Assembly (NCBI GenBank): GCA_965649105.1
Contig: CBFGJP010000003.1
Coordinates: forward strand, 1-63,129
DNA: 63,129 bases
From: a candidate division WOR-3 bacterium
GTDB lineage: Bacteria; Hydrothermota; Tepidihabitantia; SM23-42; JAOAFX01
Reading direction: 5' to 3'
Shown: piece by piece, positions 11,922 to 63,129 of the stretch
How positions within the stretch are numbered: the stretch's first letter is position 1
Layout of the letters: each line of letters starts with the position of its first letter
Made by a program: the position numbers and the translations under genes
The notes under the pieces: generated by a model
Database searches by the model: none
What the model was told of the DNA's origin: nothing
Seen by the model: only the letters and a program-made list of their open reading frames with translations

Positions 11922-11960
11922 TATAATAAAATAGGGAGTTAATCCTTGAAAGGAGGTTAT

Positions 11961-14312
11961 ATGAAGTGGGTGTCCCTGTTAATAGTCGTTGTAATTGCTT
12001 ATGCGGTTGATATCCATACTCCCTCTCCGGTAGAACCATACATCCCTCTACCCGATGAGAATCCCACGATTATCTCATTCTCCAATGGTATTGTCTTTGA
12101 TACACGGACTGGTGAACCTGAATTACCAACAAATCTGAGAATAGATTCTTATCGCGGTCCTGGATATTATCTCATCCAGGTTGATGGCCCAGTCTATTCT
12201 CATTATCTTAATCAGATAAAAGAACTTGGGATTAATGTTGTGGGCTATATTCCGAATTATGCGTTACTCGCCTATGCAACCGAAGAGCAAGTTGCCCTTG
12301 CGAATCTAAAGCCTTTTGTCCGCTGGACCGGTATCTTCCAGCCTGCATATAAACTCCAGAAGGAGGTCATTGAAGGAAAAGGAACCGCAAGGGTGACGAT
12401 ACAATTATTCCCTGATGAGAACACAGATATTATTGCTGGTTTAATCCAGTCCATGGGTTTTGATGTTGTGGAAGTCATTGACCATAAACTATGCAAGACG
12501 ATAGATGCAATCGTAGATTTGAAACGTGTTGATGAAGTGGCAAGGATTACTGGTGTCCAGTGGATTCAGTTATGGTCTGAGCCGACATTTACCAATGATA
12601 ACTGTCAGTGGGTAACCCAGACGGGGTGGCGCTCAACAGTCCCATCTGACCCAGGGGCAAGGAGAGTATGGTATGCAGGGATAAGGGGTGCCGGCACGGT
12701 CTTAAGCACGACCGACTCAGGTATATATATGTCCCACCAGCAATATAATGACCCTGCCAATCCGGTCAATGCACCGGGTGTATTCCCGAACCACAGAAAG
12801 GTCGTTGCGTATAAATTATATCAAGGTGCAGCATTCGGAGATGTTTCTGCAGTCTCCTGGCACGGAACACATGTCAATTGCACAGTTGCAGGGAATGACA
12901 CGACCTTTGGAACGAGCACCAGGGATGGAATGGCAAAGGAAGGAAAGATCTATTTTGTTGACATTGCCAATGCATCTGGCGGACTCGTCGTCCCAACGAA
13001 TCTTGCCCCAATGTATGATACAATCTATCTTGGTCGGGGACTTGGATATAACATTTTACAGCATTCAGGTTCCTGGGGCTGGGGAAATTCCAGCGGCACC
13101 TATCTGACCCAGGATGCCTCTACTGATGCTTATATCTATGCCCATCCTGACTTCTTAAACCTCTATGCGGCAGGGAATGAGTACTATGCCACAAGAATAC
13201 GGAATCCAGGTATTGCTAAGAATGTGATAACGGTTGGTGCAACTCAGAATGGTACCGCATCTAATCAAATTGCCTCGTTTTCCAGCCGCGGTCCAACCCA
13301 GGACAACAGAATTAAACCAAATCTCGTAGCACCAGGAGATATCATTTATTCTGCCCAGGGTGGGACGACAAACTCATACTGGTCAATGTCCGGAACAAGT
13401 ATGGCAACACCCGCTACAAATGGTTCAATAGGTTTGATCCGGCATTACCTGCTTGCTGGTTTTTATCCATCAGGTGCTGCGAATCCTGCGGATTCAATAA
13501 AATATCAGAGTGCCGCACTTCTGCGGGCAATGGCAATGGTCTCCTGTGACCCGAATGTAGGTTCTTATGTAATTCCCAGTTTTGATATCGGCTGGGGACG
13601 CATTGATGTAGATAGTGTCCTGTATTTTTCAGATGATACAAGAAAACTGATTATAAAGGATGATACAGTTGGCGTTGGGACAGGTCAATCAAAGACTGAT
13701 TCATTTGTTGTCACGACCTCAACCCTGCCACTCAGGGTTGCAGTTGCCTGGACCGATACCGCTGCAGCAGCAAATGCATCTATAACGCTCATCAACGATT
13801 TGAATGTCACCCTTACTGCACCCAATGGCACCTATTATCGCGGCAACCAATATACAAGCGGACAGTCCGCTGCCAATCCCACGACCTGGGATAACAGGAA
13901 TGTTGAAGAGTGCTTCAGGGTAAATAACCCTGTTATTGGGGTCTGGAGACTGACTATCGCCGGGCAGAATGTGCCCAATGCACCAATGGGCTTTGCCTAT
14001 GCCATCACTGGTGGCATTGGAACAGTAGGAATTGAAGAGAAAATTAGCAAAACTGCAGTTAAAGAAGATTTCATCTGCAACACCATTACAAATAGATTAT
14101 TGAATGTGAAGTTCACCCTTAATGACCAAAAACTGGTAACGATTCAGGTCTATGACCTGACGGGCAGAATTGTTGAACAGATTCTGAATCAAAAATTCAA
14201 TCCGGGCGAATACCAGTTTAACCACAAACTCAATCTACCAAATGGTATCTATTTTGTAGAACTGAAAACCGACAATTCCAAACAATTCAGTAAGGTTGTG
14301 ATGATTCACTAA
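11961..14312 (+). CDS. Secreted subtilisin-like S8 peptidase with Por/T9SS-like C-terminal domain
   Basis: Intact triad TDSG, HGTHV, GTSMA; signal peptide; CTD with VYDLTGR, GIYFV, KVVMIH; start re-called at ATG 11961 after AGGAGG. Confidence 0.93.
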   Translation: MKWVSLLIVVVIAYAVDIHTPSPVEPYIPLPDENPTIISFSNGIVFDTRTGEPELPTNLRIDSYRGPGYYLIQVDGPVYSHYLNQIKELGINVVGYIPNYALLAYATEEQVALANLKPFVRWTGIFQPAYKLQKEVIEGKGTARVTIQLFPDENTDIIAGLIQSMGFDVVEVIDHKLCKTIDAIVDLKRVDEVARITGVQWIQLWSEPTFTNDNCQWVTQTGWRSTVPSDPGARRVWYAGIRGAGTVLSTTDSGIYMSHQQYNDPANPVNAPGVFPNHRKVVAYKLYQGAAFGDVSAVSWHGTHVNCTVAGNDTTFGTSTRDGMAKEGKIYFVDIANASGGLVVPTNLAPMYDTIYLGRGLGYNILQHSGSWGWGNSSGTYLTQDASTDAYIYAHPDFLNLYAAGNEYYATRIRNPGIAKNVITVGATQNGTASNQIASFSSRGPTQDNRIKPNLVAPGDIIYSAQGGTTNSYWSMSGTSMATPATNGSIGLIRHYLLAGFYPSGAANPADSIKYQSAALLRAMAMVSCDPNVGSYVIPSFDIGWGRIDVDSVLYFSDDTRKLIIKDDTVGVGTGQSKTDSFVVTTSTLPLRVAVAWTDTAAAANASITLINDLNVTLTAPNGTYYRGNQYTSGQSAANPTTWDNRNVEECFRVNNPVIGVWRLTIAGQNVPNAPMGFAYAITGGIGTVGIEEKISKTAVKEDFICNTITNRLLNVKFTLNDQKLVTIQVYDLTGRIVEQILNQKFNPGEYQFNHKLNLPNGIYFVELKTDNSKQFSKVVMIH

Positions 14313-46989: not shown

Positions 46990-47017
46990 TTGACAAGTTT
47001 AATTTCTTGATTATACT
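46990..47017 (+). promoter_or_regulatory. Sigma70-like promoter, leaderless pgsB
   Basis: TTGACA-N16-TATACT-N5-GTG. Confidence 0.85.
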
Positions 47018-47022
47018 CAAGT

Positions 47023-48249
47023 GTGGTTTTTGACTATGGTATATTTCTTTTATTATCCCTTTTGATTTTATTTATTATAATTGGCAGGATTGAATGGGTA
47101 AATCATAACAGGAACATAAATTCCATTCCTTTACGAATTGTTGTCAATGGCACAAGGGGAAAATCAACAGTTACAAGATTACTCGGTGCTGCATTAAAGG
47201 CAGGCGGATATAAGACCCTTGCCAAGACAACCGGAACAAAACCGAGGATTATAATTGACAATCAACTTGAAAAACCAGTGATAAGACCGGGCCGTGCCAA
47301 TATCCACGAACAACTTTCCATAACCAGAAAAGCCGTGCAAGAAAAAGTAGATGCTATCATTTTTGAAAATATGTCTTTGAGGCCCGATTTACAACGGATT
47401 GAAGAAAGTAAGATAATTTCGCCCCAGATCGTAGTCATAACAAATGTCCGTGCTGACCACCTCGAGGTTATGGGTCCGACTTTAAATGACATCGCAAAGA
47501 ATTTCATAAATGCAATCCCCTCAAATGCAAAAGTTTTCACCGGCGAAAAAGTTTTATTTCCCTTATTAGAAAAACTAGCTAATGACCGTGGCCTTGAGAT
47601 TTATCAAAGTAATGAAAATGAAGTATCAGTTGAAGAATTAAAACCCTTTCCTTATTTTGAACATCGTGAAAATGTCGCACTCGTTTTAACTATATGCAAA
47701 CACCTCAGAATTAAAAAAGATAAGGCACTTGCGGAAATGTATAAATATATCCCGGATTCCGGGGTACTAAATAAATATAATCTGAATATTGGCGGAAAGA
47801 ATATTGTGCTTTATAATGCCCTTGCCGCCAATGACCCGGATTCCACATATTATATATATGAAAGAATTGATAAGCCTGAGAAGAATTTTTATATTATCGT
47901 CAATTGTCGTGCGGACCGTATTGACCGCTCGGTCCAGTTAGGTAAGCTAATAAGCACGAAGATTAACGCAGATTACTATTTTGTAACTGGTGGTGAAACA
48001 AATGTATTGTGCCGTACTGCAATAAAAAACGGTATAAATAGAGAAAAATTGATTGACCTCGGTAATAAGGATGTGGAATTCGTGTATAGAAAGGTAGTTG
48101 AGCTCATCAATGATAATGGAATGATACTGGCAATCGGAAATATCGTCGGCTATGGTGAAAGACTAATAAACCAATTCATTAAGCAAGGTAATGAGCGGAA
48201 TTCTATGTCAAAAGCCGCACCTTCCCTTGAAATTGCAAAGCAAAAATGA
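47023..48249 (+). CDS. pgsB: Poly-gamma-glutamate synthetase CapB/PgsB
   Basis: N-terminal TM, VNGTRGKSTVTRL, KTTGT, ITNVRADHLEVMG, AANDP, NCRADR.DRS. Confidence 0.95.
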   Translation: MVFDYGIFLLLSLLILFIIIGRIEWVNHNRNINSIPLRIVVNGTRGKSTVTRLLGAALKAGGYKTLAKTTGTKPRIIIDNQLEKPVIRPGRANIHEQLSITRKAVQEKVDAIIFENMSLRPDLQRIEESKIISPQIVVITNVRADHLEVMGPTLNDIAKNFINAIPSNAKVFTGEKVLFPLLEKLANDRGLEIYQSNENEVSVEELKPFPYFEHRENVALVLTICKHLRIKKDKALAEMYKYIPDSGVLNKYNLNIGGKNIVLYNALAANDPDSTYYIYERIDKPEKNFYIIVNCRADRIDRSVQLGKLISTKINADYYFVTGGETNVLCRTAIKNGINREKLIDLGNKDVEFVYRKVVELINDNGMILAIGNIVGYGERLINQFIKQGNERNSMSKAAPSLEIAKQK

Positions 48250-48695
48250 TCGTCATTGCCGTTGGTCTGGGTATGATGTTGAATCTACTTCTCACCGAGA
48301 CGATCGGCCTTGCGGCTGGAGGCATTGTTGTTCCGGGTTACATCGCTTTGAGTTTACACCAGCCGGATATGGTCATCAGTACAGTCGTAATTGCATTGAT
48401 CACATATTTAATACTTTATCTTTTATCCCGTTTCATCCTGCTTTATGGCCGAAGACTGCTAATTGTATCAATAATCATTGGCTATTTGCTTGGATATTTA
48501 ACAAGAGTATACCCGGCAGTTTCTCTTGAAGCACTCAAATTTGATATTACAACGATTGGATTTGTTGTGCCGGGGCTGATTGCTTACTGGATGCAAAGGC
48601 AGGGTATTATCGAAACAATCAGCACAATGTTAATTGCGGCGGTGATTGTAAGGTTAATACTGATAATACTGACTGGAGGTGCAATATTCCCATAA
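48246..48695 (+). CDS. pgsC: Poly-gamma-glutamate synthesis protein CapC/PgsC
   Basis: G..AGGIVVPGYIAL, LYGRR, IGFVVPGLIA..MQRQG. Confidence 0.95.
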   Translation: MIVIAVGLGMMLNLLLTETIGLAAGGIVVPGYIALSLHQPDMVISTVVIALITYLILYLLSRFILLYGRRLLIVSIIIGYLLGYLTRVYPAVSLEALKFDITTIGFVVPGLIAYWMQRQGIIETISTMLIAAVIVRLILIILTGGAIFP

Positions 48696-48712: not shown

Positions 48713-49801
48713 TTGCCCAATTATATCCTTGTTTTTGTCACATTTATTTCTTTAATATTTATATTTTTAACGCTCCATTATAAGACAAAATATTACGCAC
48801 CATATTATTATGAAAAAATAGAGAGTGCCCGTTTGACAAAAACTTTTTTTGAAAAAATTAAACAGGAAAAAATAAAAAAAGGTTTGATGATAGACCCAAT
48901 CAATGACCCAAATCAGACCGGCCTGATTGGATTAGAACATTCACCAATTACCAGTGAACCTGGGGATCTAAATGCAAAACTGACAACAACGAATCCCAAC
49001 ATTGCAGCGGTAATTGTTGAATTATTCAAAAAATGCCGGTTGAATGCCGGGGATTTTGTCGCGGTTTCTTTTAGCGGTTCTTTCCCGGCATTGAATCTTG
49101 CTGTCCTTTCAGCAATTCAGACTCTAAATCTAAAACCGATTATCATCACCTCTGTGAGTTCCTCTATGTGGGGTGCAAACATTCCTGAGTTTACCTATCT
49201 TGATATGGAAAACATTCTATTTCAAAATGGTCTTCTGCGATTTCGTTCGGCTGCTGCTTCTCTGGGTGGCATTGATGATATTGGACGGGGACTGAGTCCT
49301 GAAGGTAGAAAAATGCTTGAAACAGCAATAAGCCGAAATAATATCCCCGAATTAAAATCAAAAGATCTCGAAGAGGCGATAGAAAAAAGATTTAGTTTGT
49401 ATTACGAAATTGCGGGTGGAAAAAAGATTGCTTGTTTTATTAATATCGGAGGTGGTGCAACAGCACTTGCCGGATACGAACTGCCTACCGGAATCTTAGC
49501 CCCATTGGAATATTCCTTCCATCAAGGAATTGCTGGCAGGTTTTTAAGAAATGGTGTAAAGGTTATAAATATCAATAATATCAATCACCTCGCACGACGC
49601 TACGAACTTCCCATTGCACCGATACCTGTTCCAGAAATCGGGGAAGGAAAATTATACTATGAAAACCGGTATTCAGTCTTTCTCTCCTCAATCTTTTTTA
49701 TCATTCTCAGCGTGATAATTTTTATAATCTTGAGGATTGATATTGATTATTATCTCAGGAGGCATAAAAATGATAAATATTATTTTATTTTTTATATTTA
49801 A
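48713..49801 (+). CDS. pgsW: Poly-gamma-glutamate system protein PgsW (start may be ATA 48692)
   Basis: DPNQTGLIG...IT...G.L.AK.TTTNPN, SGSFPALN, SSMWGAN, INIGGG; N- and C-terminal TM helices; follows pgsC. Confidence 0.85.
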   Translation: MPNYILVFVTFISLIFIFLTLHYKTKYYAPYYYEKIESARLTKTFFEKIKQEKIKKGLMIDPINDPNQTGLIGLEHSPITSEPGDLNAKLTTTNPNIAAVIVELFKKCRLNAGDFVAVSFSGSFPALNLAVLSAIQTLNLKPIIITSVSSSMWGANIPEFTYLDMENILFQNGLLRFRSAAASLGGIDDIGRGLSPEGRKMLETAISRNNIPELKSKDLEEAIEKRFSLYYEIAGGKKIACFINIGGGATALAGYELPTGILAPLEYSFHQGIAGRFLRNGVKVININNINHLARRYELPIAPIPVPEIGEGKLYYENRYSVFLSSIFFIILSVIIFIILRIDIDYYLRRHKNDKYYFIFYI

Positions 49802-50591
49802 TCAGGTTGTAAATATCTCGCCCGGGGATGAAGTCAAAATAAAAATCCAGACCTTAAAAGAAGAATCTTATTATGTTTTAACCAAAAAACAACCCGTGGA
49901 GATAAAAGTCTCTGGTCCAACCTGGTTACGGGTATATACAAGGATTCCCTGGTCTGGAGAGAAAAAAGGTACGAAATTATACAAAATAATTCTTCAGGAA
50001 GACGACATAAAAGAAAGATTTATCACCCTCGAAAGTGAGTATTCAAAGGTCTCCCGGATTGACAATATTAGATTGAGCAAATGGCGTTCTTTTTATATAA
50101 ATGTCCCGGAAGGAAACCATTCCTACCGCTTTATTCACTGGCGTGCACCAAGGGACACAATCTTTCTTAGATTCACAAACGAATCACCGGGTAAGTGGCA
50201 GGATATCACACCATTATCTTATAATGCAAAACTTGAATTGGTTGAAAACGAAAAAATAATTAATTACTTTGAGGCCACTCAGCAAAAACCGGTTATATTA
50301 GAGATCACAGGACCGAAGAAATTGAAAATAATCACTCGTTTGAATTTAAATGCAGATATCAAGGGTGAACAAATATATTCCATCAGTGTGAAAGAAAAAG
50401 ATAAAACAATCAAAACTGTTAGTTACCGTACCTACCCATCAGAGACGGTTCATTATAATAACCGCCCCGGCACATTGCCGTCAAACCCCCACACCTTTTT
50501 TCTCAATGTCCGTAAGGGGCTCCATCGCTATGAATTTTATATTGAAAATTGGGCTGAATGCGGGTTGAGATTTCTGATTGAATCAAAATGA
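49770..50591 (+). CDS. Hypothetical exported protein with two tandem beta-rich domains
   Basis: Internal duplication; start re-called at ATG 49770 after AGGAGG. Confidence 0.8.
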   Translation: MINIILFFIFNQVVNISPGDEVKIKIQTLKEESYYVLTKKQPVEIKVSGPTWLRVYTRIPWSGEKKGTKLYKIILQEDDIKERFITLESEYSKVSRIDNIRLSKWRSFYINVPEGNHSYRFIHWRAPRDTIFLRFTNESPGKWQDITPLSYNAKLELVENEKIINYFEATQQKPVILEITGPKKLKIITRLNLNADIKGEQIYSISVKEKDKTIKTVSYRTYPSETVHYNNRPGTLPSNPHTFFLNVRKGLHRYEFYIENWAECGLRFLIESK

Positions 50592-51553
50592 ACTTCATTC
50601 TCTTTTTGTTTACTGCGTTTGATTATTCAATCAACACCAATCTTAATTTTGTTTATGATGATAATATTTTTGAATATTCAAAGCAATATCTTGAGGAATT
50701 CATAAGTGGATTAAACCCCGAGCATTTTCCATTTGAAACCTATGATGACTTATATACAACTTATGGAATGGATATATTGATTCGAAATAAATTCATTGGT
50801 CGGCGTACTACAACCATCAATCTTAACTTCACAGGTTATAATTATTTTATAAATCAGCAAAAGAATTATTCCATAATTTCAACCGGAATACGCCAGTCTT
50901 TCGGAAAAATTGCAATCAAACTTGGCTATTTAATTATGCCCGGATATTTAATTCGTTATTACCCTGACCCGATGGGAATCGATTATATCGGTTGTGAATT
51001 TACCGAGCATTTATTAACCTTTAAAACAAATCTGAAGTTAAGTAAATTAGATTTTGGTTTGGTCGTTGGTTATGAGATTGATGACTATATTAAAAATTTT
51101 GATGTCTATGATTCCAGAGCAACGAGAGGCGGACCATTTTTTGAATTTTCACCATCTGGGACTCTTGACCTAAAATTTAACTACGAATTTAAATCTTCTA
51201 CTGCCAAGGGTCCGGTGCCGGATATCTCTTATGTCCAGCACCGAATTGGACTACAGCCGGTTATAAAAATGAATTTTCCCAAATTATCAAAACTCGGTTT
51301 TGAATATCAATTGAAGTACCGAATTTTTACGACCGAGTTCTCGCCCATTCTTGATACACCACACAGCGGCAGGCTTGACGTTATCCAAATATTCCGAACT
51401 GACTACAAATTTCCAATCTTCACCAATCTCTATCTCTCTTTTGATTACGCCTATGAATTTCGCAACTCACATTCTGAGGTCTATGACGAGATCAGTCAAT
51501 ATAAAAATTATAATAAATGGAGTGCGGGCTTTGGATTGGAATTTTTATATTAA
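50588..51553 (+). CDS. Predicted outer-membrane beta-barrel protein
   Basis: Alternating amphipathic Tyr/Phe-rich strands; YDDNIF motif; C-terminal WSAGFGLEFLY BAM-type beta-signal. Confidence 0.75.
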   Translation: MNFILFLFTAFDYSINTNLNFVYDDNIFEYSKQYLEEFISGLNPEHFPFETYDDLYTTYGMDILIRNKFIGRRTTTINLNFTGYNYFINQQKNYSIISTGIRQSFGKIAIKLGYLIMPGYLIRYYPDPMGIDYIGCEFTEHLLTFKTNLKLSKLDFGLVVGYEIDDYIKNFDVYDSRATRGGPFFEFSPSGTLDLKFNYEFKSSTAKGPVPDISYVQHRIGLQPVIKMNFPKLSKLGFEYQLKYRIFTTEFSPILDTPHSGRLDVIQIFRTDYKFPIFTNLYLSFDYAYEFRNSHSEVYDEISQYKNYNKWSAGFGLEFLY

Positions 51554-51599: not shown

Positions 51600-52571
51600 A
51601 TGAAAAAAATAATAATTCTTTTACTGCCGATAATTTTAATCTTATCCTGCCACCATCCCCAGGGTGAAACCCATAATCTGGTGATTGTTAGTCAATGTAA
51701 ACTCCCCGGTTATGCAATTAATATTGATATTGAAGGAGATTATGCTTATATCGCCAATGACCAGGGTGGATTACAGATAGTGGATATAGCAAACCCCGAT
51801 TCAGTTTATGTTGTCGGTCATTATATTCATCAGACAAATATTCAGGGTGTAGCAGTCCGCGATAGTTTTGTTTACCTGGCTCTTGCTGCCGGACCACCGA
51901 ATAATGGAGGAATGCTGATTGTAAATGTCTCTGAGCCTTCAAATCCAACTTTTGTCGGACAGGACAACTGGTTTTATGGATATAATGTGTTTGCGCCCCC
52001 CAATGATACAAAATATGTTTATATCGCGGCAAGATACTGGTTCATCGTTGAAGATGTCTCCTGGCCCCAATATCCAAATTATGCCCGAAGATTTGCCACA
52101 CCCGGCAATGTCCACAGCCTCTTTGTCATTGACTCACTGGCATATTTAGCCTGCGAACAGATGGGATTGATAATCTATAATTTAAATAATCCTGATAGTA
52201 CCGCAAAGATCGGTGAAATGGATACCCCTTCAAATGCGAGGGATATCTTTGTATTAGATAACATTGCCTATATTGCTGACGGCTATGATGGTCTGGTCCT
52301 GATTGATGTATCAAATCCATCCAGACCAGAATTACTCAGCAGTTATGATACACCAGGATATGCCCAGGGTATATTTGTTGAGAATGTCCTTGCCTATGTC
52401 GCCGATGGCAGCAGCGGATTAAAGGTAATTGATGTATCAAACCCTGATAATTTAGAAATCTATGCAGAATTAAAAACGCCCTATGCCTATAATGTCTTTG
52501 TAAAGAATGGGCTGATATACCTTATTGACAGAGACCTTGGATTAGTTATAATAAAAGAGGAAAATCAATGA
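51600..52571 (+). CDS. LVIVD-repeat lipoprotein (beta-propeller)
   Basis: Lipobox ILSC; repeated YAYIA...GL.I.D.S.P..P units. Confidence 0.88.
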   Translation: MKKIIILLLPIILILSCHHPQGETHNLVIVSQCKLPGYAINIDIEGDYAYIANDQGGLQIVDIANPDSVYVVGHYIHQTNIQGVAVRDSFVYLALAAGPPNNGGMLIVNVSEPSNPTFVGQDNWFYGYNVFAPPNDTKYVYIAARYWFIVEDVSWPQYPNYARRFATPGNVHSLFVIDSLAYLACEQMGLIIYNLNNPDSTAKIGEMDTPSNARDIFVLDNIAYIADGYDGLVLIDVSNPSRPELLSSYDTPGYAQGIFVENVLAYVADGSSGLKVIDVSNPDNLEIYAELKTPYAYNVFVKNGLIYLIDRDLGLVIIKEENQ

Positions 52572-55500
52572 TTACTCTATCCTTTCTTCTCATATCAGCA
52601 TTAACCGGTCTTGATATTCAAGTTATTAACAGAACTGAAAATGCTATCCAGTTGAATCTTTCTTTTTCTGAGCAAATAATTGAGCCCGTTAATATCGGAT
52701 TTATCATATCTCCCCAGCCGCCAAACTGCGAATATTATGTCGGAAAAAATTTTAATTCATCATATAACCCGGTTGTAGTTGGTGCACCAGTCAAATTAAA
52801 AGATTACAATCTTTATCCAATAATTATTAATCCGGTCATCAGTATTAAAAAACTCAATTTGAATCTTAATTTTTCTAAATACCAGGAAATCAAAATTCCC
52901 AATAGCCTTGCGCAGGTATTCAAAAATCTTATTTTGAATTACGAATATAAGCCTGAGATAGAGCCACAGGGACTTTTGATTATCACGCCCAATTCATTTT
53001 ATAACGCAGTCTTGCCACTTGCGGATTGGAAAGAGAAAAAGGGCTGGAAGGTAACGGTTGCCCGATTGTCTGAAACAGGAACTTCAGCAACGGCGATAAA
53101 AAACTATATAACAAATGCGTATTACAACTGGAACCCAGCCCCTGAATATGTGATTCTCATAGGTGATAAAGATAGTCTGCCTTGTTTTACAATCTCCTCA
53201 AATCCCACTGATCATCCATATACTACAATTGTGGGAAACGATTTTCTCTCCGATTTACTGATTGGCAGATTATCTGTTGCTAATGCAAACGAACTGAATA
53301 CAGTGATTGCAAAGATCATCAATTACGAAAAGAATCCATATACTACAGATACCCTCTGGTTCAAAAGAACACTGATGGTTGCGGGTAATTATCCTGACAA
53401 TCAAATGACAACACCCATTCCCACAAAACGCTGGGTGCGTGAGAAATTTTTAGATTATGGTTATTATCAGGTGGATACAGTCTTCTATCCACCTACTGCA
53501 AATGGTGCTACTGCAATTACAAATTCAGTTAACCAGGGCGTAACATTTGTCAATTATCGTGGTGGCATTGCCTCCTGGTCAGGATGGGATAGACCGAGTT
53601 TTTATAATACAGATGTAATTGGTTTATCCAATGGCTGGAAATTACCGGTCGTTACCAGCATCGTCTGTTTAACCGGCAATTTTAATGCTGAACCCTGCTT
53701 TGGTGAGTCCTGGTTAAGGGCAGGAAATCCTTCAACACCAAAGGGTGCGATTGCATTCTTCGGTGCCTCTCCCCCAACCACCCATTCACGATGGAATAAC
53801 TGCCTTGATTTTGGAATCTATTGGGGGCTTTTACAGGATAGCATCTTTAATATTGGACCTATGACCTATCGCGGCAAGATGGAAGTTTATCTCAATTTTC
53901 CCCTTGAGGTCTCACCTGATTCAGGAAGCGAATTCTATTTCAACGCCTATAATCTACTCGGCGACCCATCCCTTGAAGTCTGGACCGATGTACCAAAGAA
54001 CCTTACAGTCAATCACCAGGCAATAATACCGGTCGGGACGAATTCTTTTTCGGTCCAGGTCTTAAATTCTTCTTCTCAACCCATAAAAGGTGCGATGGTT
54101 AGTCTCTATAAGAAAAATGAAACAAAAGAAGTAGGATTCACGGATGCAAGCGGTCTTGCGAATTTTCAGATTACTACAAGCACACCCGATACACTATTCG
54201 TTACGGTCACAAAACACAACTTCAGACCATATTATGGTTATGCACTTGTAAATAACTCCGGGGTCTATGTTGGATACCACAGCCATACAATCTCTGACCC
54301 TGGTGGTAATAATAATGGTGAGATAAACCCTGGTGAGACAATTAATCTATCAATAACCTTAAAGAATTTTGGAAATTCAACGACCGCCACAAATGTTTCA
54401 GCAAGACTCTCTACAAACGACCCATTGATTACTATCACTGATTCCATTAAAAATTATGGAACGATTATCCCTGGTGCAACTGCCAGTTCCTCACCCTTTA
54501 TCTTCAGTGTCTCCCATGGTATAAAAAATAACCACACAATTAAATTCAATCTGACAATCAACTCATCCCAGGGAAACTGGAACTCTGTGCTCTGGCTCGT
54601 TACAAAGGCAGCAGAATTTGATTATCAGAGGCATCAAGTCATTGATAGCGGTAATGGTATTCTTGAACCGGGTGAGACCGCGGATTTGGCGATTTCAATA
54701 AAAAATATTGGTGGGCTTGCAGGCACAAACATAACTGGTCTATTAAAATCGCTCAATCCCGGGGTTTCAGTAATTGATTCCCTTGGTTCATTTGGCAATA
54801 TCCCGGTTGGTGATTCAACGACAAATTCAGGTGATGTATTCCGGGTGAGTGCCTCGTCTCAACTTGCACCGGGTCATGAAATAAAATTTTTAGCCATTTT
54901 ATCTGAAAACAATTGGATAAGAGACACCATTGGATTTTCGATTGTAATTGGTGTTGTTGGACCTAATGCGCCAACCGGACCAGACGGCTATGGTTATTAC
55001 GCCTATGATAATACTGACACGAGTTACCCTGAAGCACCAGTATATAACTGGGTTGAAATTGACCCTGACCTTGGTGGACCCGGGACAATCATAAGCTTAT
55101 CAAATGATGAAACAAAAACAATTACCATCCCATTTACTTTTAAATATTACGGTAATAATTACAATAGAATCAGTATTTGTTCCAATGGCTACATCGCCAT
55201 GGACTCAACCTGGATTGCTGATATGTATAACTGGCATATCTTTGGTGCAGGTGGTCCTCCCTTGCTTATCTCACCTTTCTGGGACGATCTTGACCCGAAC
55301 GCAACGGATTCCAGTGGCAATATCTGCTATTATTATGATGTGTCAAATCACAGATTCATAATTGAATGGTCAAGGATTCAACACCTCCACAATCCCACTG
55401 CACCAACACCAGCAGAATTGCAGACATTTGAAATAATTCTATACGACCCGATTTATTATTCAACCCAGACTGGTGACGGTGAAATTTTATTCCAGTATAA

Positions 55501-60698: not shown

Positions 60699-63129
60699 AC
60701 GAGAAAATTTTTGGTGTTCTTTTTAATTTTAATTTCATCCGGTATTGCCCGGGAGATTGGGGCAAGATATTTGATAATCACAAATGATGCATTTTATGAT
60801 GCAATCCTTCCCTATGCCCGGTGGAAGCATAAGATGGGCTTGCGCACAAAGATTGTCAGGGTCCCTTCTGAACTTGCCCAGAACGCAACTTCAATCAGAA
60901 ACTATATCGTGAATGCCTATAACAACTGGCAGATAAAACCGGAGTTTATCTTATTTGTCGGTGCACCAAATTATATCCCCTGGTCTTTAAGCACTTCACC
61001 CTATGGTGATAATAATTATACAAATATGGATGGAGATATCTATAATGAAATCCTATCTGGAAGACTGAATGTCCACAATTTAACCGAAGCACAGACTGTC
61101 GTTGCCAAGATGTTAAGGTACGAACGATATCCTGATGTCTCAGACTCCTTGTGGTTTAAGAAAGGTTGTTTGATTGTCCGGGATATTCAGGATGATGATT
61201 CAATTACCTATCGGCTTGATGCTGAGTATGTTGCGGGCCATATGGTAAATAATGAATATATCAAGGTTGATACATTCTTTGCGAGTCGTGGTGCGAATGC
61301 GACATCAGTAGTAAATGCGACTAATGAAGGAAGGGGTTTTGTTGTCTATCGCGGTAGTGCGACGAATAACTGGTACAATCCCTTTGCCGTCAATCCTGAT
61401 GGACTAAGCAATGGGAACAAATTGCCCATTGTGGTTTCAGCAACCTGTGGCACCCTTGGAACTGGTTCTACACCTACCACTGCGGAACGGTGGTTTTTAA
61501 CCGGTTCACCAACTACCATGCGTGGTGCGGCTGGTTATTTTGCTACAACGACGAGTATTACCAACGGTGCATATTTGAGGAGTGCAGTCACCCGCGGCTT
61601 CTTTGATGGAGTATTTTTATACAAAAGAAGGACCTTTGGCCAGGCCTGTGAAGATGGCAGAATAAGGGTTTATAATACCTATGGTTCAACGAATGAATAC
61701 CGAGGCTTTACTACAATTGGGGACCCGGCAATGACAATATGGACAGCAACACCAAAAATCCTGACAGTATCTTACGATTCCATTCTCAATGCCTGTGTCA
61801 CCGAAACCCTCCAGATAAATATCCAGCATCAAGGTGTTCCTGTTGAGTCTGCATATGTCTGCATAATTTTTGATACCTTGATATACCAAACAGGATGGAC
61901 AAATTCATCCGGTGTTATTAATTTCATCCTCACACCGCCTGATACTGGCACAATGAATATCACAGTCACCGGTAGAAACCTCTATCCCTTTGAAGGAACC
62001 GCATCAATAATCCATAACAATGTTTATCTCACTTATACTGGAAATTCAGTGTCAGATTCGCTTGGTAATCACAATAATAGTTTGGACCCCGGGGAGACAA
62101 TTTTGCTGCGGGCAAAAATCAAGAATATAGGCTTAGTGACCGCACAGAATGTAAAAGCAGTGTTAAGAACAACTGATACAATGGTAATTATATCAGATAG
62201 CATCTCTTATTATGGTAATATTGAGCCAAATCAGGAATTACCGGGTTTAAATGCATTTGTATTCACAATTTCTCCGAAGAATTATCAACATTTTATACCT
62301 TTTGAATTAATAATGTATGATTCCAACGATAGTATCTGGAGTGCTAATTTTTCACTTATGACCACAGGCACAGTCCCTGGTGGAAATGGCACAGGTCCAG
62401 ACCCATACGGATATTACATTTATGATGATACCGATACCCTCACTGGTAATGCGCCTGTATATGATTGGTTTGAAATTTCGCCTTCTGCAGGTGGACCGGG
62501 TATAATAACACCTGAGATTTCAGATAGTGACGATGATACGGTTACCTATCCCCTACCCTTCAATGTCAAATTTTATGGCGTAGAATATAATTCAATCGGC
62601 ATCTGTTCAAATGGATTTGTAGAATTACTATCATCCACCTACCCTTTTGGCGACAACTCTTCAATACCATCACAATCCGGTCCCAAGAGGCTCATTGCAC
62701 CATTCTGGGATGATTTTGATCTGAGACCTTCGCCTGATGGTAATGGTGATGTTTTTTGGTATTATGATACACTCAATCATCGTTTCATAATTGAATTCAA
62801 AGACTGCAAACACTATGGTATCATACCATTGTTTGAAACTTTTCAGATAGTTTTACTCGAACCTTCTTATTATCCAACCCCCACTGGAGACGGTGAAATT
62901 TTGTTTATCTATAACACAGTGCAAAATCCTAATAGTTGCACTGTTGGCATTGAGGATGAAACTGAAACCCGTGGTCTCCAGTATGTCTATAACAACAACT
63001 ATGCCCCAAATGCAGCAATCATTCAAAATGGCCGGGCACTGCTCATTACTACAAAACCCCCACTGCACCAGCATTCACCCTGGATCAACCTTATTAATTA
63101 TACAGTCAATGACTCTGCAGGCGGAAACA
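60699..63129 (+). CDS. Gingipain-like C25-family protein 3, 3'-truncated, probable ACG start (not in the ORF track)
   Basis: Frame spot-checked open to the window end; (M)RKFLVFFLILISSGIA-REIGARYLIIT; YRGSA, ATC, IGDP; clear paralog of C25-2. Confidence 0.85.

What the first reader, a model, noticed from the sequence alone, without database searches (positions are those of the whole stretch)
53555..61448. All three gingipain-fold proteins lack the catalytic histidine but keep the cysteine
Seen: at the position of the gingipain NYTGHG motif the sequences are NYRGGI (53555-53569), LYRGQG (58051-58068) and VYRGSA (61344-61361). The nucleophile-position Cys is kept (IVCLTG 53666, ITCQTI 58153, ATCGTL 61446), and an Arg is conserved two residues before the lost His. 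Known: RgpB/Kgp and the T9SS sortase PorU need a His-Cys dyad. Inference: a pseudo-protease adhesin or scaffold family, or Cys-dependent chemistry such as acyl transfer/transpeptidation, possibly substituting for the missing CapD anchoring step (speculative).
Basis: partly seen in the sequence, partly recalled or inferred. Interest (0 to 1): 0.7.

Follow-up and report, generated by a model that had tools for sequence, protein, structure and literature searches.

The report
Histidine-less gingipain-like proteins in polyglutamate operon
Three surface proteins of a WOR-3 bacterium have a gingipain protease fold that has lost the catalytic histidine but keeps an invariant cysteine and a new invariant arginine; this holds for a very large environmental clade, and one of the three is a fixed member of a poly-gamma-glutamate synthesis operon, so these abundant "gingipain-like peptidases" are probably not Arg/Lys proteases.

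Summary
All three C25 ORFs (W1 52568-56065, W2 57403-60444, W3 ~60700 to the window end) have G/I, Q or S where RgpB has His211. They keep Cys244 and carry Arg at RgpB Thr209. They also lack RgpB Glu152 and the S1 Asp163. The W1 model is a confident gingipain fold (pLDDT 92, TM 0.90 to RgpB).

This is a clade signature, not a local decay:
- 120/120 W1 orthologues show it.
- 145/153 domains from the 150 best-scoring 50%-identity representatives show it.
- 125/125 C25 domains in 80 genome loci from about 10 FCB-type phyla show it.

Arg and Cys are invariant and use all six Arg and both Cys codons. The His column is nearly random (3.2 bits). No conserved His exists elsewhere in the domain. PorU has a normal YAGHG…TATC site and a different Arg.

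New context: W1 is the last, translationally coupled gene of pgsB-pgsC-TIGR04332-orf-orf(OM barrel-like)-LVIVD-W1. This order is kept in 35 of 52 loci with enough flank, across several phyla.

Best reading (not proven): a non-canonical, Cys-dependent site tuned to carboxylate ligands, with W1 acting on surface poly-gamma-glutamate. A non-catalytic binding module is the main rival. I found no publication describing either feature.

The parts
47023..48249 (+). pgsB (poly-gamma-glutamate synthase, Mur-ligase type), first gene of the operon
   Evidence: NCBIfam TIGR04012 E 2.7e-115, above cutoff. Pfam Mur_ligase_M. Promoter-like TTGACA-16-TATACT at 46990-47017.
48246..48695 (+). pgsC (CapC); overlaps the pgsB stop by 4 nt
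   Evidence: Pfam Caps_synth_CapC E 1.3e-32. Coordinates.
48713..49801 (+). TIGR04332 'poly-gamma-glutamate system protein', with N- and C-terminal hydrophobic helices
   Evidence: NCBIfam TIGR04332 E 5e-97. Hydrophobic segments. AF2 pLDDT 92, no PDB structural neighbour.
49737..50591 (+). orf284, unknown, hydrophobic N-terminus; the true start is probably the ATG at 49770
   Evidence: No Pfam or NCBIfam family. Conserved in the same position in other genomes.
50588..51553 (+). orf321, outer-membrane beta-barrel-like protein; start overlaps the orf284 stop by 4 nt
   Evidence: C-terminal ...GFGLEFLY, an aromatic-terminated alternating pattern. Its orthologue in L001 has a weak MtrB_PioB hit. 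No PDB sequence match.
51600..52571 (+). LVIVD-repeat beta-propeller lipoprotein (signal peptide ...LILSC)
   Evidence: Pfam LVIVD E 1.1e-36. Lipobox seen.
52568..56065 (+). W1: 1165-aa surface protein. Domains: N-terminal beta-sandwich (52610-52870), His-less C25 domain (52961-53992), Ig-like domain (53993-54253), two CARDB-like repeats, NIDO-like domain, C-terminal sorting domain (55727-56062). The start overlaps the LVIVD stop by 4 nt.
   Evidence: Pfam C25 E 7.6e-65, FlgD_ig, Por_Secre_tail. AF2 model pLDDT 92.3. Foldseek RgpB TM 0.90. 120 orthologues.
53558..53560 (+). W1 Arg331 (RgpB Thr209 position), last residue of strand beta3; clade-invariant
53564..53569 (+). W1 Gly333-Ile334, the position of the lost catalytic His211
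   Evidence: Column entropy 3.17 bits.
53666..53668 (+). W1 Cys367 (RgpB Cys244 position), two residues after strand beta4; clade-invariant
56112..57395 (+). Ycf48/BNR-type beta-propeller with C-terminal sorting domain; conserved between W1 and W2 in other genomes
   Evidence: Pfam PSII_BNR E 5.3e-23, Por_Secre_tail. PDB Ycf48 hits. Synteny.
57403..60444 (+). W2: 1013-aa paralogue. His-less C25 domain at 57466-58452 (Arg219 58057-58059, Gln221 58063-58065, Cys251 58153-58155), directly after the signal peptide. C-terminal sorting domain at 60187-60441.
   Evidence: Pfam C25 E 1.4e-44, Por_Secre_tail E 6.2e-08. Alignment to RgpB.
60693..63129 (+). W3: third paralogue, runs off the window end. 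C25 domain at 60759-61748 (Arg 61350-61352, Ser at the His position 61356-61358, Cys 61446-61448). Start codon uncertain, between 60693 and 60714.
   Evidence: Pfam C25 E 5.2e-46.. Promoter-like TTGACT-16-TATAAT at 60649-60676.

Best explanation
W1, W2 and W3 are exported, multi-domain cell-surface proteins of a candidate division WOR-3 bacterium. Each has a signal peptide, Ig/CARDB/NIDO-like domains and a T9SS-type C-terminal sorting domain.

Shown: their enzyme-like module is a true gingipain (C25, clan CD) fold. Across a whole, very large clade, the His-Cys dyad, the Glu that orients the His, and the Arg-binding S1 Asp have been replaced. The replacement constellation is an invariant Arg at the end of strand beta3 (RgpB Thr209 position), an unconstrained residue where His was, and the invariant Cys after strand beta4. 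They are therefore neither Arg/Lys gingipains nor PorU sortases.

Inferred: the active-site strands are the best conserved part of the domain, and the nucleophile position never drifts. So the cleft is most likely still a working site that uses the Cys thiol without a His (hydrolysis or acyl transfer through a thioester). The built-in guanidinium would reverse the charge of the S1 pocket, so that it takes a carboxylate-bearing (acidic) group instead of Arg/Lys.

Shown: W1 is the terminal, translationally coupled gene of a conserved operon, pgsB-pgsC-TIGR04332-orf284-orf321(OM barrel-like)-LVIVD lipoprotein-W1.

Inferred: its substrate or ligand is therefore most plausibly poly-gamma-glutamate emerging at the cell surface. 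W1 would trim it, release it or anchor it, the role taken by PgdS or CapD in Bacillus. W2 and W3 are downstream paralogues with the same site but no prodomain-like N-terminal domain.
For: Fold: Pfam C25 hits. AF2 pLDDT 92.3, pTM 0.92. Foldseek 1cvr E 2e-34, TM 0.90.

Loss of His, Glu and Asp with Cys kept.

Clade-wide signature: 120/120 orthologues. 145/153 domains from the 150 best-scoring 50%-identity representatives, in a family with 16,787 hits. 125/125 domains in 80 loci from WOR-3, Stahlbacteria, Latescibacterota, KSB1, Eisenbacteria, TA06, Gemmatimonadota, Cloacimonadota, Fermentibacteria, Neomarinimicrobiota and Hydrothermae.

Selection: only four columns are 100% invariant, and three of them lie on or next to the active-site strands (R331, W340, C367). 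The His column has 3.17 bits of entropy between columns of 0 and 0.06 bits. All six Arg codons and both Cys codons are used. No conserved His exists anywhere in the domain. No conserved partner Cys exists across the clade, so a conserved disulfide is unlikely. A small residue (G/A/S) is kept in 142/154 sequences at the position of Gly212, a main-chain contact to the P1 residue in RgpB (PMC4357240).

Position 209 is near the ligand: Thr209 appears in RgpB inhibitor contact maps (PMC10882967). Caspases bind an acidic P1 through Arg residues (PMC4357240).

Operon: 4-nt overlaps pgsB/pgsC, orf284/orf321 and LVIVD/W1. The same gene order occurs in 35 of 52 loci with at least 6 kb upstream. That includes every locus with at least 44% W1 identity, in WOR-3, Stahlbacteria and Eisenbacteria. 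It is also seen in Latescibacterota, KSB1 and Hydrothermia contigs.
Against: No experiment and no atomic geometry were available: the tools return no model coordinates. So it is not shown that Arg331 reaches the Cys or the S1 pocket.

The clan CD enzymes cited here (RgpB, Kgp, PorU, caspases) all use a His, and I found no example that works without one.

W1-type catalytic domains are acidic overall (median pI 4.95, net charge about -9.5). This does not suggest a general polyanion-binding surface.

The Arg/Cys signature is shared by many paralogues with no PGA genes nearby (17 of 52 loci), so PGA cannot be the ligand of the whole clade.

A minimal pgsB-pgsC-TIGR04332 module exists without any C25 gene (L084), so PGA synthesis does not need W1.

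The gene-neighbourhood argument applies only to W1.
Confidence: 0.45

Rival explanations
1. Non-catalytic pseudo-protease. The C25 fold has become a ligand-binding or scaffold module on a surface adhesin or S-layer-like protein. The conserved Arg/Trp/Cys pocket only binds something, such as a carboxylate group of PGA, a peptide C-terminus or a partner protein, and performs no chemistry.
For: Three of the four gingipain catalytic or specificity residues (His211, Glu152, Asp163) are gone. The proteins carry many adhesin-type domains: Ig, CARDB-like, NIDO-like. They occur in tandem arrays of up to five genes (L025), as surface-coat proteins often do. The clan CD enzymes reviewed in PMC4357240 all have a His-Cys dyad.
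Against: In the pseudo-proteases I know of, the nucleophile is usually lost or drifts (my own knowledge, not checked here). Here Cys is 100% kept in more than 270 divergent domains with both codons in use, while its neighbours vary. The active-site strands are the most conserved segments. An invariant unpaired Cys is hard to explain by binding alone.
Confidence: 0.35
2. W1 is the sortase-like core of a polyglutamate-based counterpart of the T9SS attachment complex. With the neighbouring propeller-plus-CTD protein, the LVIVD lipoprotein and the OM barrel, it would cleave the C-terminal sorting domains of cargo proteins and join them to PGA (or join PGA to an anchor). This parallels PorU, PorZ and PorV/PorQ joining cargo to anionic LPS.
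For: The parts list is parallel: a C25-fold protein with a CTD (W1), a beta-propeller with a CTD (56112-57395), an OM barrel-like protein and an anionic polymer synthase in one conserved cluster, followed by CTD cargo genes. PorU is the next structural neighbour after the gingipains. PorU acts by transpeptidation to an amine (PMC4560394).
Against: W1 scores 68 bits against the PorU model, whose cutoff is 420. It lacks PorU's His and PorU's Arg722. The propeller protein resembles Ycf48, not PorZ, outside the CTD. Presence of T9SS core genes in this genome was not testable.
Confidence: 0.1
3. Ordinary extracellular endopeptidases for protein scavenging, in which another residue (a non-conserved His in the loop, Asp303 or water) substitutes for the missing base. 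This is the current annotation, 'C25 family cysteine peptidase', and the usual ecological reading.
For: Database names. The nucleophile and a small residue at the Gly212 position are kept. An acidic residue specific to the clade (Asp303, D/E in 141/145) exists. USP53/54, once annotated as inactive pseudoenzymes, were later found to be active (abstract of PMC12037411, listed).
Against: No conserved His exists anywhere in the domain, and sporadic loop His residues occur in only a few members. Asp303 lies mid-strand in beta2 and does not co-vary with the Arg. The S1 Asp163 and the Trp284 lid are absent, so Arg specificity is not expected.
Confidence: 0.08

Closest known systems
Gingipains RgpB and Kgp (MEROPS family C25, clan CD; PDB 1cvr, 4rbm)
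   Same: Same fold: two-subdomain alpha/beta catalytic domain followed by an Ig-like domain, TM 0.90 and 0.83. Same nucleophile position. Same secretion logic, with a signal peptide and a T9SS-type C-terminal domain. The W1 type also has an N-terminal beta-sandwich where gingipains have a prodomain, and PF08126 is detected in some orthologues.
   Different: No catalytic His211, no Glu152, no S1 Asp163, no Trp284 lid. Arg replaces Thr209. The C-terminal part is much longer, with CARDB-like and NIDO-like domains. The genomic association is with pgsBC rather than with haemagglutinin or adhesin domains.
PorU, the T9SS sortase (PDB 6za2; NCBIfam NF033707)
   Same: C25-type fold, about 1150 residues, own C-terminal domain. 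Thought to act by acyl transfer rather than simple hydrolysis (PMC4560394).
   Different: PorU has a canonical YAGHG…TATC dyad and its own conserved Arg722 at Cys+32. That position aligns to Thr in W2/W3 and is not kept in W1. Scores of 48-79 bits are far below the family cutoff of 420.
CapD/GGT and PgdS, the PGA-processing enzymes encoded next to cap/pgs operons in Bacillus
   Same: An exported protein gene encoded directly downstream of the PGA synthase genes.
   Different: No homology is expected. From my own knowledge, CapD is an Ntn-hydrolase gamma-glutamyltranspeptidase and PgdS an NlpC/P60 enzyme. W1 is a clan CD fold. A PGA-directed activity of W1 is inferred from context only.
Caspases (C14), as a model for an acidic-P1 clan CD pocket
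   Same: Same clan fold. Caspases recognise a carboxylate P1 through Arg side chains (PMC4357240).
   Different: The caspase Arg residues sit on loops L1 and L5, not at the His-2 position, and caspases keep the catalytic His.

Membership tests
Peptidase family C25 (gingipain), as a fold/homology family | Significant match to the C25 catalytic domain model and the gingipain three-dimensional fold | tested here: met
   PF01364 E 7.6e-65, 1.4e-44 and 5.2e-46. Foldseek 1cvr E 2.2e-34, TM 0.90, rmsd 3.0 Å.
Peptidase family C25, as active gingipain-type peptidases | Catalytic His (RgpB His211) at the end of strand beta3 | tested here: not met
   G/I in W1, Q in W2, S in W3. No conserved His elsewhere in the domain.
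Peptidase family C25, as active gingipain-type peptidases | Catalytic Cys (RgpB Cys244) after strand beta4 | tested here: met
   C367, C251 and the W3 Cys at 61446-61448. Invariant in the clade.
Peptidase family C25, as active gingipain-type peptidases | S1 acidic residue that binds the P1 Arg/Lys (RgpB Asp163), with the Trp284 lid | tested here: not met
   The Asp163 column is P, Y, Y in W1-W3 and P/A/Y in the clade. The Trp284 column is a gap in 147/154 sequences.
Peptidase family C25, as active gingipain-type peptidases | Glu152, which orients the catalytic His | tested here: not met
   Y or gap in W1, D in W2, I in W3, with uncertain alignment in this loop.
Peptidase family C25 | Ig-like domain directly after the catalytic domain | tested here: met
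   PF03785 E 1.9e-4, below its cutoff. The model shows an all-beta domain at residues 480-562, and the RgpB/Kgp structural alignment covers it.
Peptidase family C25 | Removable N-terminal prodomain that plugs the S1 pocket | tested here: inconclusive
   W1 has a confident N-terminal beta-sandwich at residues 15-101. PF08126 is recorded for orthologues P0104 and P0110 but was not detected in W1 itself. W2 and W3 have none. Cleavage is not testable.
PorU T9SS sortase (NF033707) | Score above the curated family cutoff (420 bits) | tested here: not met
   68.1, 78.8 and 48.3 bits, covering the catalytic core only.
PorU T9SS sortase | His-Cys dyad plus conserved Arg722, 32 residues after the Cys | tested here: not met
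   PorU reads YAGHG…TATC…FSTTR. The window proteins have no His and have T or P at the Arg722 position.
PorU T9SS sortase | Functions with PorV, PorZ and PorQ in a T9SS-bearing organism | not testable with these tools
   No T9SS core gene lies in the window.
Poly-gamma-glutamate gene cluster (pgsB/pgsC system) | PgsB and PgsC equivalogs adjacent and co-oriented with the gene in question | tested here: met
   TIGR04012 E 2.7e-115, PF14102 E 1.3e-32, TIGR04332 E 5e-97. Overlapping start and stop codons up to W1. Conserved order in 35 loci.
Poly-gamma-glutamate gene cluster | Demonstrated PGA production, and an effect of the neighbouring gene on PGA | not testable with these tools
   No cultured strain data found. 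WOR-3 papers do not mention PGA or these genes.

The most novel reading that the evidence does not exclude
The conserved nine-gene cluster encodes an envelope-spanning poly-gamma-glutamate system of diderm FCB-type bacteria. Its order is pgsB, pgsC, TIGR04332, orf284, OM barrel, LVIVD lipoprotein, W1, propeller-CTD protein, and W2-type C25 genes. In this reading a His-less Cys/Arg gingipain fold works as a new kind of transpeptidase. It would couple sorting-domain cargo proteins, or the outer membrane, covalently to PGA. That would be a polyglutamate counterpart of the PorU/A-LPS attachment step, using catalytic machinery not described for clan CD.
Probability: 0.12. Interest if true: 0.9.

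Novelty: new variant of a known kind. Interest (0 to 1): 0.66.

Why it matters
1. Genes annotated 'C25 gingipain-like peptidase' were reported as 41-45% of all signal-peptide-bearing peptidase genes in White Oak River sediments. They were read there as Arg-specific endopeptidases that explain measured Arg-substrate hydrolysis (PMC6752024). Reviews of T9SS cargo also treat them as ordinary cysteine peptidases (PMC11205867). If the environmental C25 genes belong largely to the His-less Arg/Cys clade described here, that inference does not hold. The most abundant 'exported peptidase' of such communities would then have an unknown activity. I did not test the clade membership of those sediment genes.

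2. An invariant Cys plus Arg in a clan CD fold without His is either a new catalytic solution or an unusually well-conserved pseudo-enzyme pocket. Either can be tested directly with recombinant protein.

3. The conserved operon gives a first candidate parts list for how diderm bacteria outside Firmicutes make, export and handle poly-gamma-glutamate. I found no description of this in the searchable literature.

Tried and rejected
- Another His completing the dyad: rejected. No His column is conserved in the catalytic domain of 120 orthologues. Only sporadic loop His residues occur in a few of 269 domains.
- The conserved Arg being PorU's 'sortase Arg': rejected. PorU Arg722 is 32 residues after the Cys and aligns elsewhere.
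- Asp303 as a partner of Arg331 (salt bridge or substitute base): not supported. Asp is kept in His-containing relatives that lack the Arg, and it lies mid-strand in beta2.
- A conserved disulfide explaining the Cys: rejected. No second Cys column is conserved across the clade.
- General electrostatic PGA binding: not supported. W1-type domains are acidic, median pI 4.95.
- TIGR04332 as the hidden CapD/GGT-like enzyme: the confident model (pLDDT 92) has no PDB neighbour, with best TM about 0.2-0.3 and E above 1e-3. No sequence match either. So nothing can be said.
- orf321 against PDB sequences: no hit.
- The propeller protein as PorZ: only the CTD matches the PorZ model. The propeller is Ycf48-like.
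- Literature searches for His-less C25, PGA in WOR-3, or PGA clusters in diderms: nothing relevant.
- Taxon names for distant representatives: mostly unnamed metagenome proteins.
- Residue-level geometry (Arg-Cys distance, pocket shape): could not be obtained, because model coordinates are not exposed by the tools.

Full report
**The observation.** The window's last 10.5 kb holds three + strand ORFs with a Peptidase_C25 domain:
- W1, 52568-56065, 1165 aa;
- W2, 57403-60444, 1013 aa;
- W3, from about 60700 to the window end, more than 800 aa.

Their Pfam E-values are 7.6e-65, 1.4e-44 and 5.2e-46. The first motif is quoted one codon late; otherwise the coordinates are right. HMMER alignments to RgpB (1cvr, 4ief) and Kgp put RgpB His211 opposite Ile334/Gly333 of W1 and Gln221 of W2. 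They put Cys244 opposite Cys367 and Cys251. MAFFT gives Ser for W3. All three have Arg where RgpB has Thr209. The Glu152 and Asp163 positions of RgpB are also not conserved. These are the residue that orients the His and the S1 residue that binds the substrate Arg.

**The fold.** An AlphaFold2 model of W1 residues 1-570, built on 81 sequences, has mean pLDDT 92.3 and pTM 0.92. Its best PDB neighbours are:
- RgpB, E 2e-34, target-normalised TM 0.90, rmsd 3.0 Å;
- Kgp, TM 0.83;
- PorU (6za2), far behind.

In the model Arg331 is the last residue of strand beta3 (327-331). Cys367 lies two residues after strand beta4 (361-365). These are the positions where clan CD enzymes carry their dyad (PMC4357240).

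**A clade signature, not a local decay.** The organism is a candidate division WOR-3 bacterium, judging by the names of the closest proteins.
- All 120 listed W1 homologues (41-100% identity) have Arg and Cys and no His.
- A profile search of 1.84 billion cluster representatives found 16,787 C25 relatives (2,558 at E ≤ 1e-30). Among the best 150, 145 of 153 domains have Arg209 and Cys244 and no His.
- In 80 genome loci fetched with the W1 profile, all 125 C25 domains show the same pattern. The loci come from WOR-3, Stahlbacteria, Latescibacterota, KSB1, Eisenbacteria, TA06, Gemmatimonadota, Cloacimonadota, Fermentibacteria, Neomarinimicrobiota and Hydrothermae.
- The few relatives with a His either lack the Arg or, in a giant Thermoplasmata protein, have both.

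**What selection says.**
- Among the 145 His-less representatives only four columns are 100% invariant: Arg234 (also Arg112 in RgpB), Arg331, Trp340 and Cys367. Three of these lie on or next to the two active-site strands.
- The column where His used to be has 3.17 bits of entropy (Q, W, S, T, E, F, I, G…). It sits between columns of 0 and 0.06 bits.
- The segments 326-340 and 356-370 are among the least variable of the domain.
- All six Arg codons and both Cys codons occur at the invariant positions, so conservation acts on the amino acid.
- No His is conserved anywhere in the catalytic domain.
- No second Cys is conserved across the clade.
- A small residue persists at the position of Gly212. 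Gly212 is one of the main-chain contacts to the P1 residue in RgpB.

The cleft is therefore under strong constraint with a changed set of residues. A decayed site would not look like this.

**Comparison with PorU.** PorU is the C25-type enzyme thought to do transpeptidation. In the PDB sequence it reads …LLNYAGHG…ITATCDF…FSTTR. It has a normal His, Ala at the -2 position, and its own conserved Arg722 32 residues after the Cys (PMC4560394; alignment). The window proteins have none of these. They score 48-79 bits against the PorU family model, whose cutoff is 420. They are not PorU.

**Context.** Upstream of W1 lie, in order:
- pgsB (47023-48249, TIGR04012 E 2.7e-115);
- pgsC (48246-48695, CapC E 1.3e-32);
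- a TIGR04332 'poly-gamma-glutamate system protein' (48713-49801, E 5e-97);
- two unknown ORFs, the second ending in an outer-membrane-type …GFGLEFLY;
- an LVIVD-repeat lipoprotein.

 Stop and start codons overlap by 4 nt at pgsB/pgsC, orf284/orf321 and LVIVD/W1. Downstream follow a Ycf48/BNR-type propeller with a sorting domain, then W2 and W3. The same order is found in two complete WOR-3 chromosomes whose W1 is only 55-57% identical and in a Hydrothermia contig. By tblastn it is found in 35 of the 52 loci with at least 6 kb of upstream sequence. That includes every such locus with 44% or more W1 identity. Latescibacterota, KSB1 and Eisenbacteria are included. A minimal pgsB-pgsC-TIGR04332 module also exists without the six downstream genes (L084). 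The downstream block is therefore an accessory extension. W1 orthologues are a fixed part of this extended PGA cluster. W2-type paralogues vary from one to four or more copies.

**How it most likely works.**
- Shown: the fold; the loss of His, Glu and Asp; the invariance of Arg and Cys; export signals; operon membership.
- Inferred: the site still works and uses the Cys. Position 209 lies within contact range of active-site ligands in RgpB (PMC10882967). Clan CD enzymes that take acidic P1 residues do so through Arg side chains (caspases; PMC4357240). In this clade the pocket's Asp is lost and an Arg is gained. The simplest reading is a charge-reversed pocket for a carboxylate-bearing group.
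- For W1 the obvious candidate is poly-gamma-glutamate, in which every residue carries a free alpha-carboxylate. From general knowledge, Bacillus PGA operons are followed by a PGA-processing enzyme (PgdS, CapD). W1 occupies that place.
- How a thioester could form and resolve without a His is unknown. A substrate carboxylate or water acting as base is possible but is pure speculation.
- I put about 0.45 on a Cys-dependent non-canonical enzyme, and within that roughly 0.3 overall on PGA as the W1 substrate.

**Rivals.**
- A purely binding pseudo-protease (0.35) fits the loss of three catalytic or specificity residues and the adhesin-like architecture. It does not explain an unpaired Cys that never changes.
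- A PGA-based analogue of the T9SS attachment complex (0.10) is the most novel reading. The parts list is parallel, but W1 fails every PorU-specific test.
- A conventional endopeptidase with a substitute base (0.08) has no conserved candidate residue. Asp303 is mid-strand and does not co-vary with the Arg.

Against the PGA idea: W1-type domains are acidic overall, and the signature is shared by paralogues far from any PGA genes.

**Novelty and weight.** I found no paper describing His-less C25 domains, or PGA clusters of this kind. Databases call these proteins 'C25 family cysteine peptidase'. C25 genes were reported as 41-45% of exported peptidase genes in White Oak River sediments and were interpreted as Arg-specific endopeptidases (PMC6752024). 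The present result questions that reading, although I did not test which clade those sediment genes belong to. It is a new variant of a known family rather than a new kind of system, and the functional claims remain untested.

**Limits.**
- No coordinates could be inspected, so all statements about the pocket are by homology and literature.
- Only the top 150 of 16,787 family members were seen, so the share of His-less members in the whole family is unknown.
- T9SS core genes could not be searched for in the genome.
- The taxon labels of many loci are those of metagenome bins.

Noticed in passing
window 55762-55815 (W1), 57168-57199 (propeller protein), 60223-60254 (W2); also L001-L036 near the 3' ends of the orthologous genes: Near-perfect heptanucleotide tandem repeats lie inside the coding sequence just before the C-terminal sorting domains of three neighbouring genes (CAGATGC x7.7; AAATCCG x4.6, twice). 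Period-7 arrays are the commonest repeat class in the related loci (63 arrays in 28 loci). In many loci they sit near the 3' ends of the W1-type and propeller genes, but with different unit sequences. Gain or loss of one 7-nt unit would shift the frame and remove the sorting domain. This is a candidate phase-variation switch for surface display.
   Followed up: partly
window 52525-52552, 46990-47017, 60649-60676: The three best sigma-70-like matches of the 17-kb region fall directly upstream of W1, pgsB and W3. The W1 site is a perfect TTGACA-16-TATAAT inside the 3' end of the LVIVD gene. W1 may therefore also have its own promoter inside the operon. These are consensus matches only.
   Followed up: no
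window 60686-60714: The W3 start is unclear. A GGAG at 60689-60692 is followed in frame by ATT, ATT and ACG. The first canonical start codons (TTG 60711, GTG 60714) lie 19-22 nt downstream and would give a signal peptide without a charged N-region. A non-canonical start is possible.
   Followed up: partly
window 48713-49801: The TIGR04332 'poly-gamma-glutamate system protein' gives a confident model (pLDDT 92, pTM 0.87). It has N- and C-terminal helices and an alpha/beta core with no significant structural neighbour in the PDB. It is an unsolved fold at the heart of a PGA system that has no annotated PgsA/CapA gene.
   Followed up: partly
L084 8377-11092: A contig whose protein is labelled Nitrospirae carries only pgsB-pgsC-TIGR04332, followed by unrelated genes. 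The three-gene synthase core is thus separable from the six-gene surface block seen in WOR-3-type genomes.
   Followed up: partly
window 57095-57395 versus 60144-60444: The sorting-domain DNA of the propeller gene and of W2 is 80% identical over 245 nt, although the rest of the two genes is unrelated. This suggests exchange or homogenisation of C-terminal domains between neighbours. W2 and W3 are 68% identical in DNA over their whole length.
   Followed up: no
W1 residues ~800-1040 (window ~54965-55690): The NIDO-like domain of W1 orthologues holds many invariant polar residues (for example FWDD at 904-907, H939, H941, N982-D983-D984, H987). It is as conserved as the C25 domain, so it may be a second functional site.
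   Followed up: no
P0153 / P0389 (Thermoplasmata archaeon, 3975-3987 aa): A giant archaeal protein carries several C25 domains whose motif is R-N-H-G or R-D-H-G. It has both the clade's Arg and a His, a possible intermediate state between canonical and His-less sites.
   Followed up: no
window 11946-14312: Another exported enzyme with a T9SS-type sorting domain, an S8 subtilase, lies 35 kb upstream among housekeeping genes. Sorting-domain cargo is thus not confined to the PGA cluster.
   Followed up: no
L025 10001-24794; L002 21022-22512: The number of W2-type C25 genes after the propeller gene varies between genomes, with up to five C25 domains in a row in WOR_3 SM23_42. In one chromosome the array ends with an M14 carboxypeptidase carrying a sorting domain.
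   Followed up: no
window 60446-60501: An imperfect 12-nt repeat (GGAAGTTGGGTGA-like, 4.3 copies) lies in the W2-W3 intergenic region.
   Followed up: no
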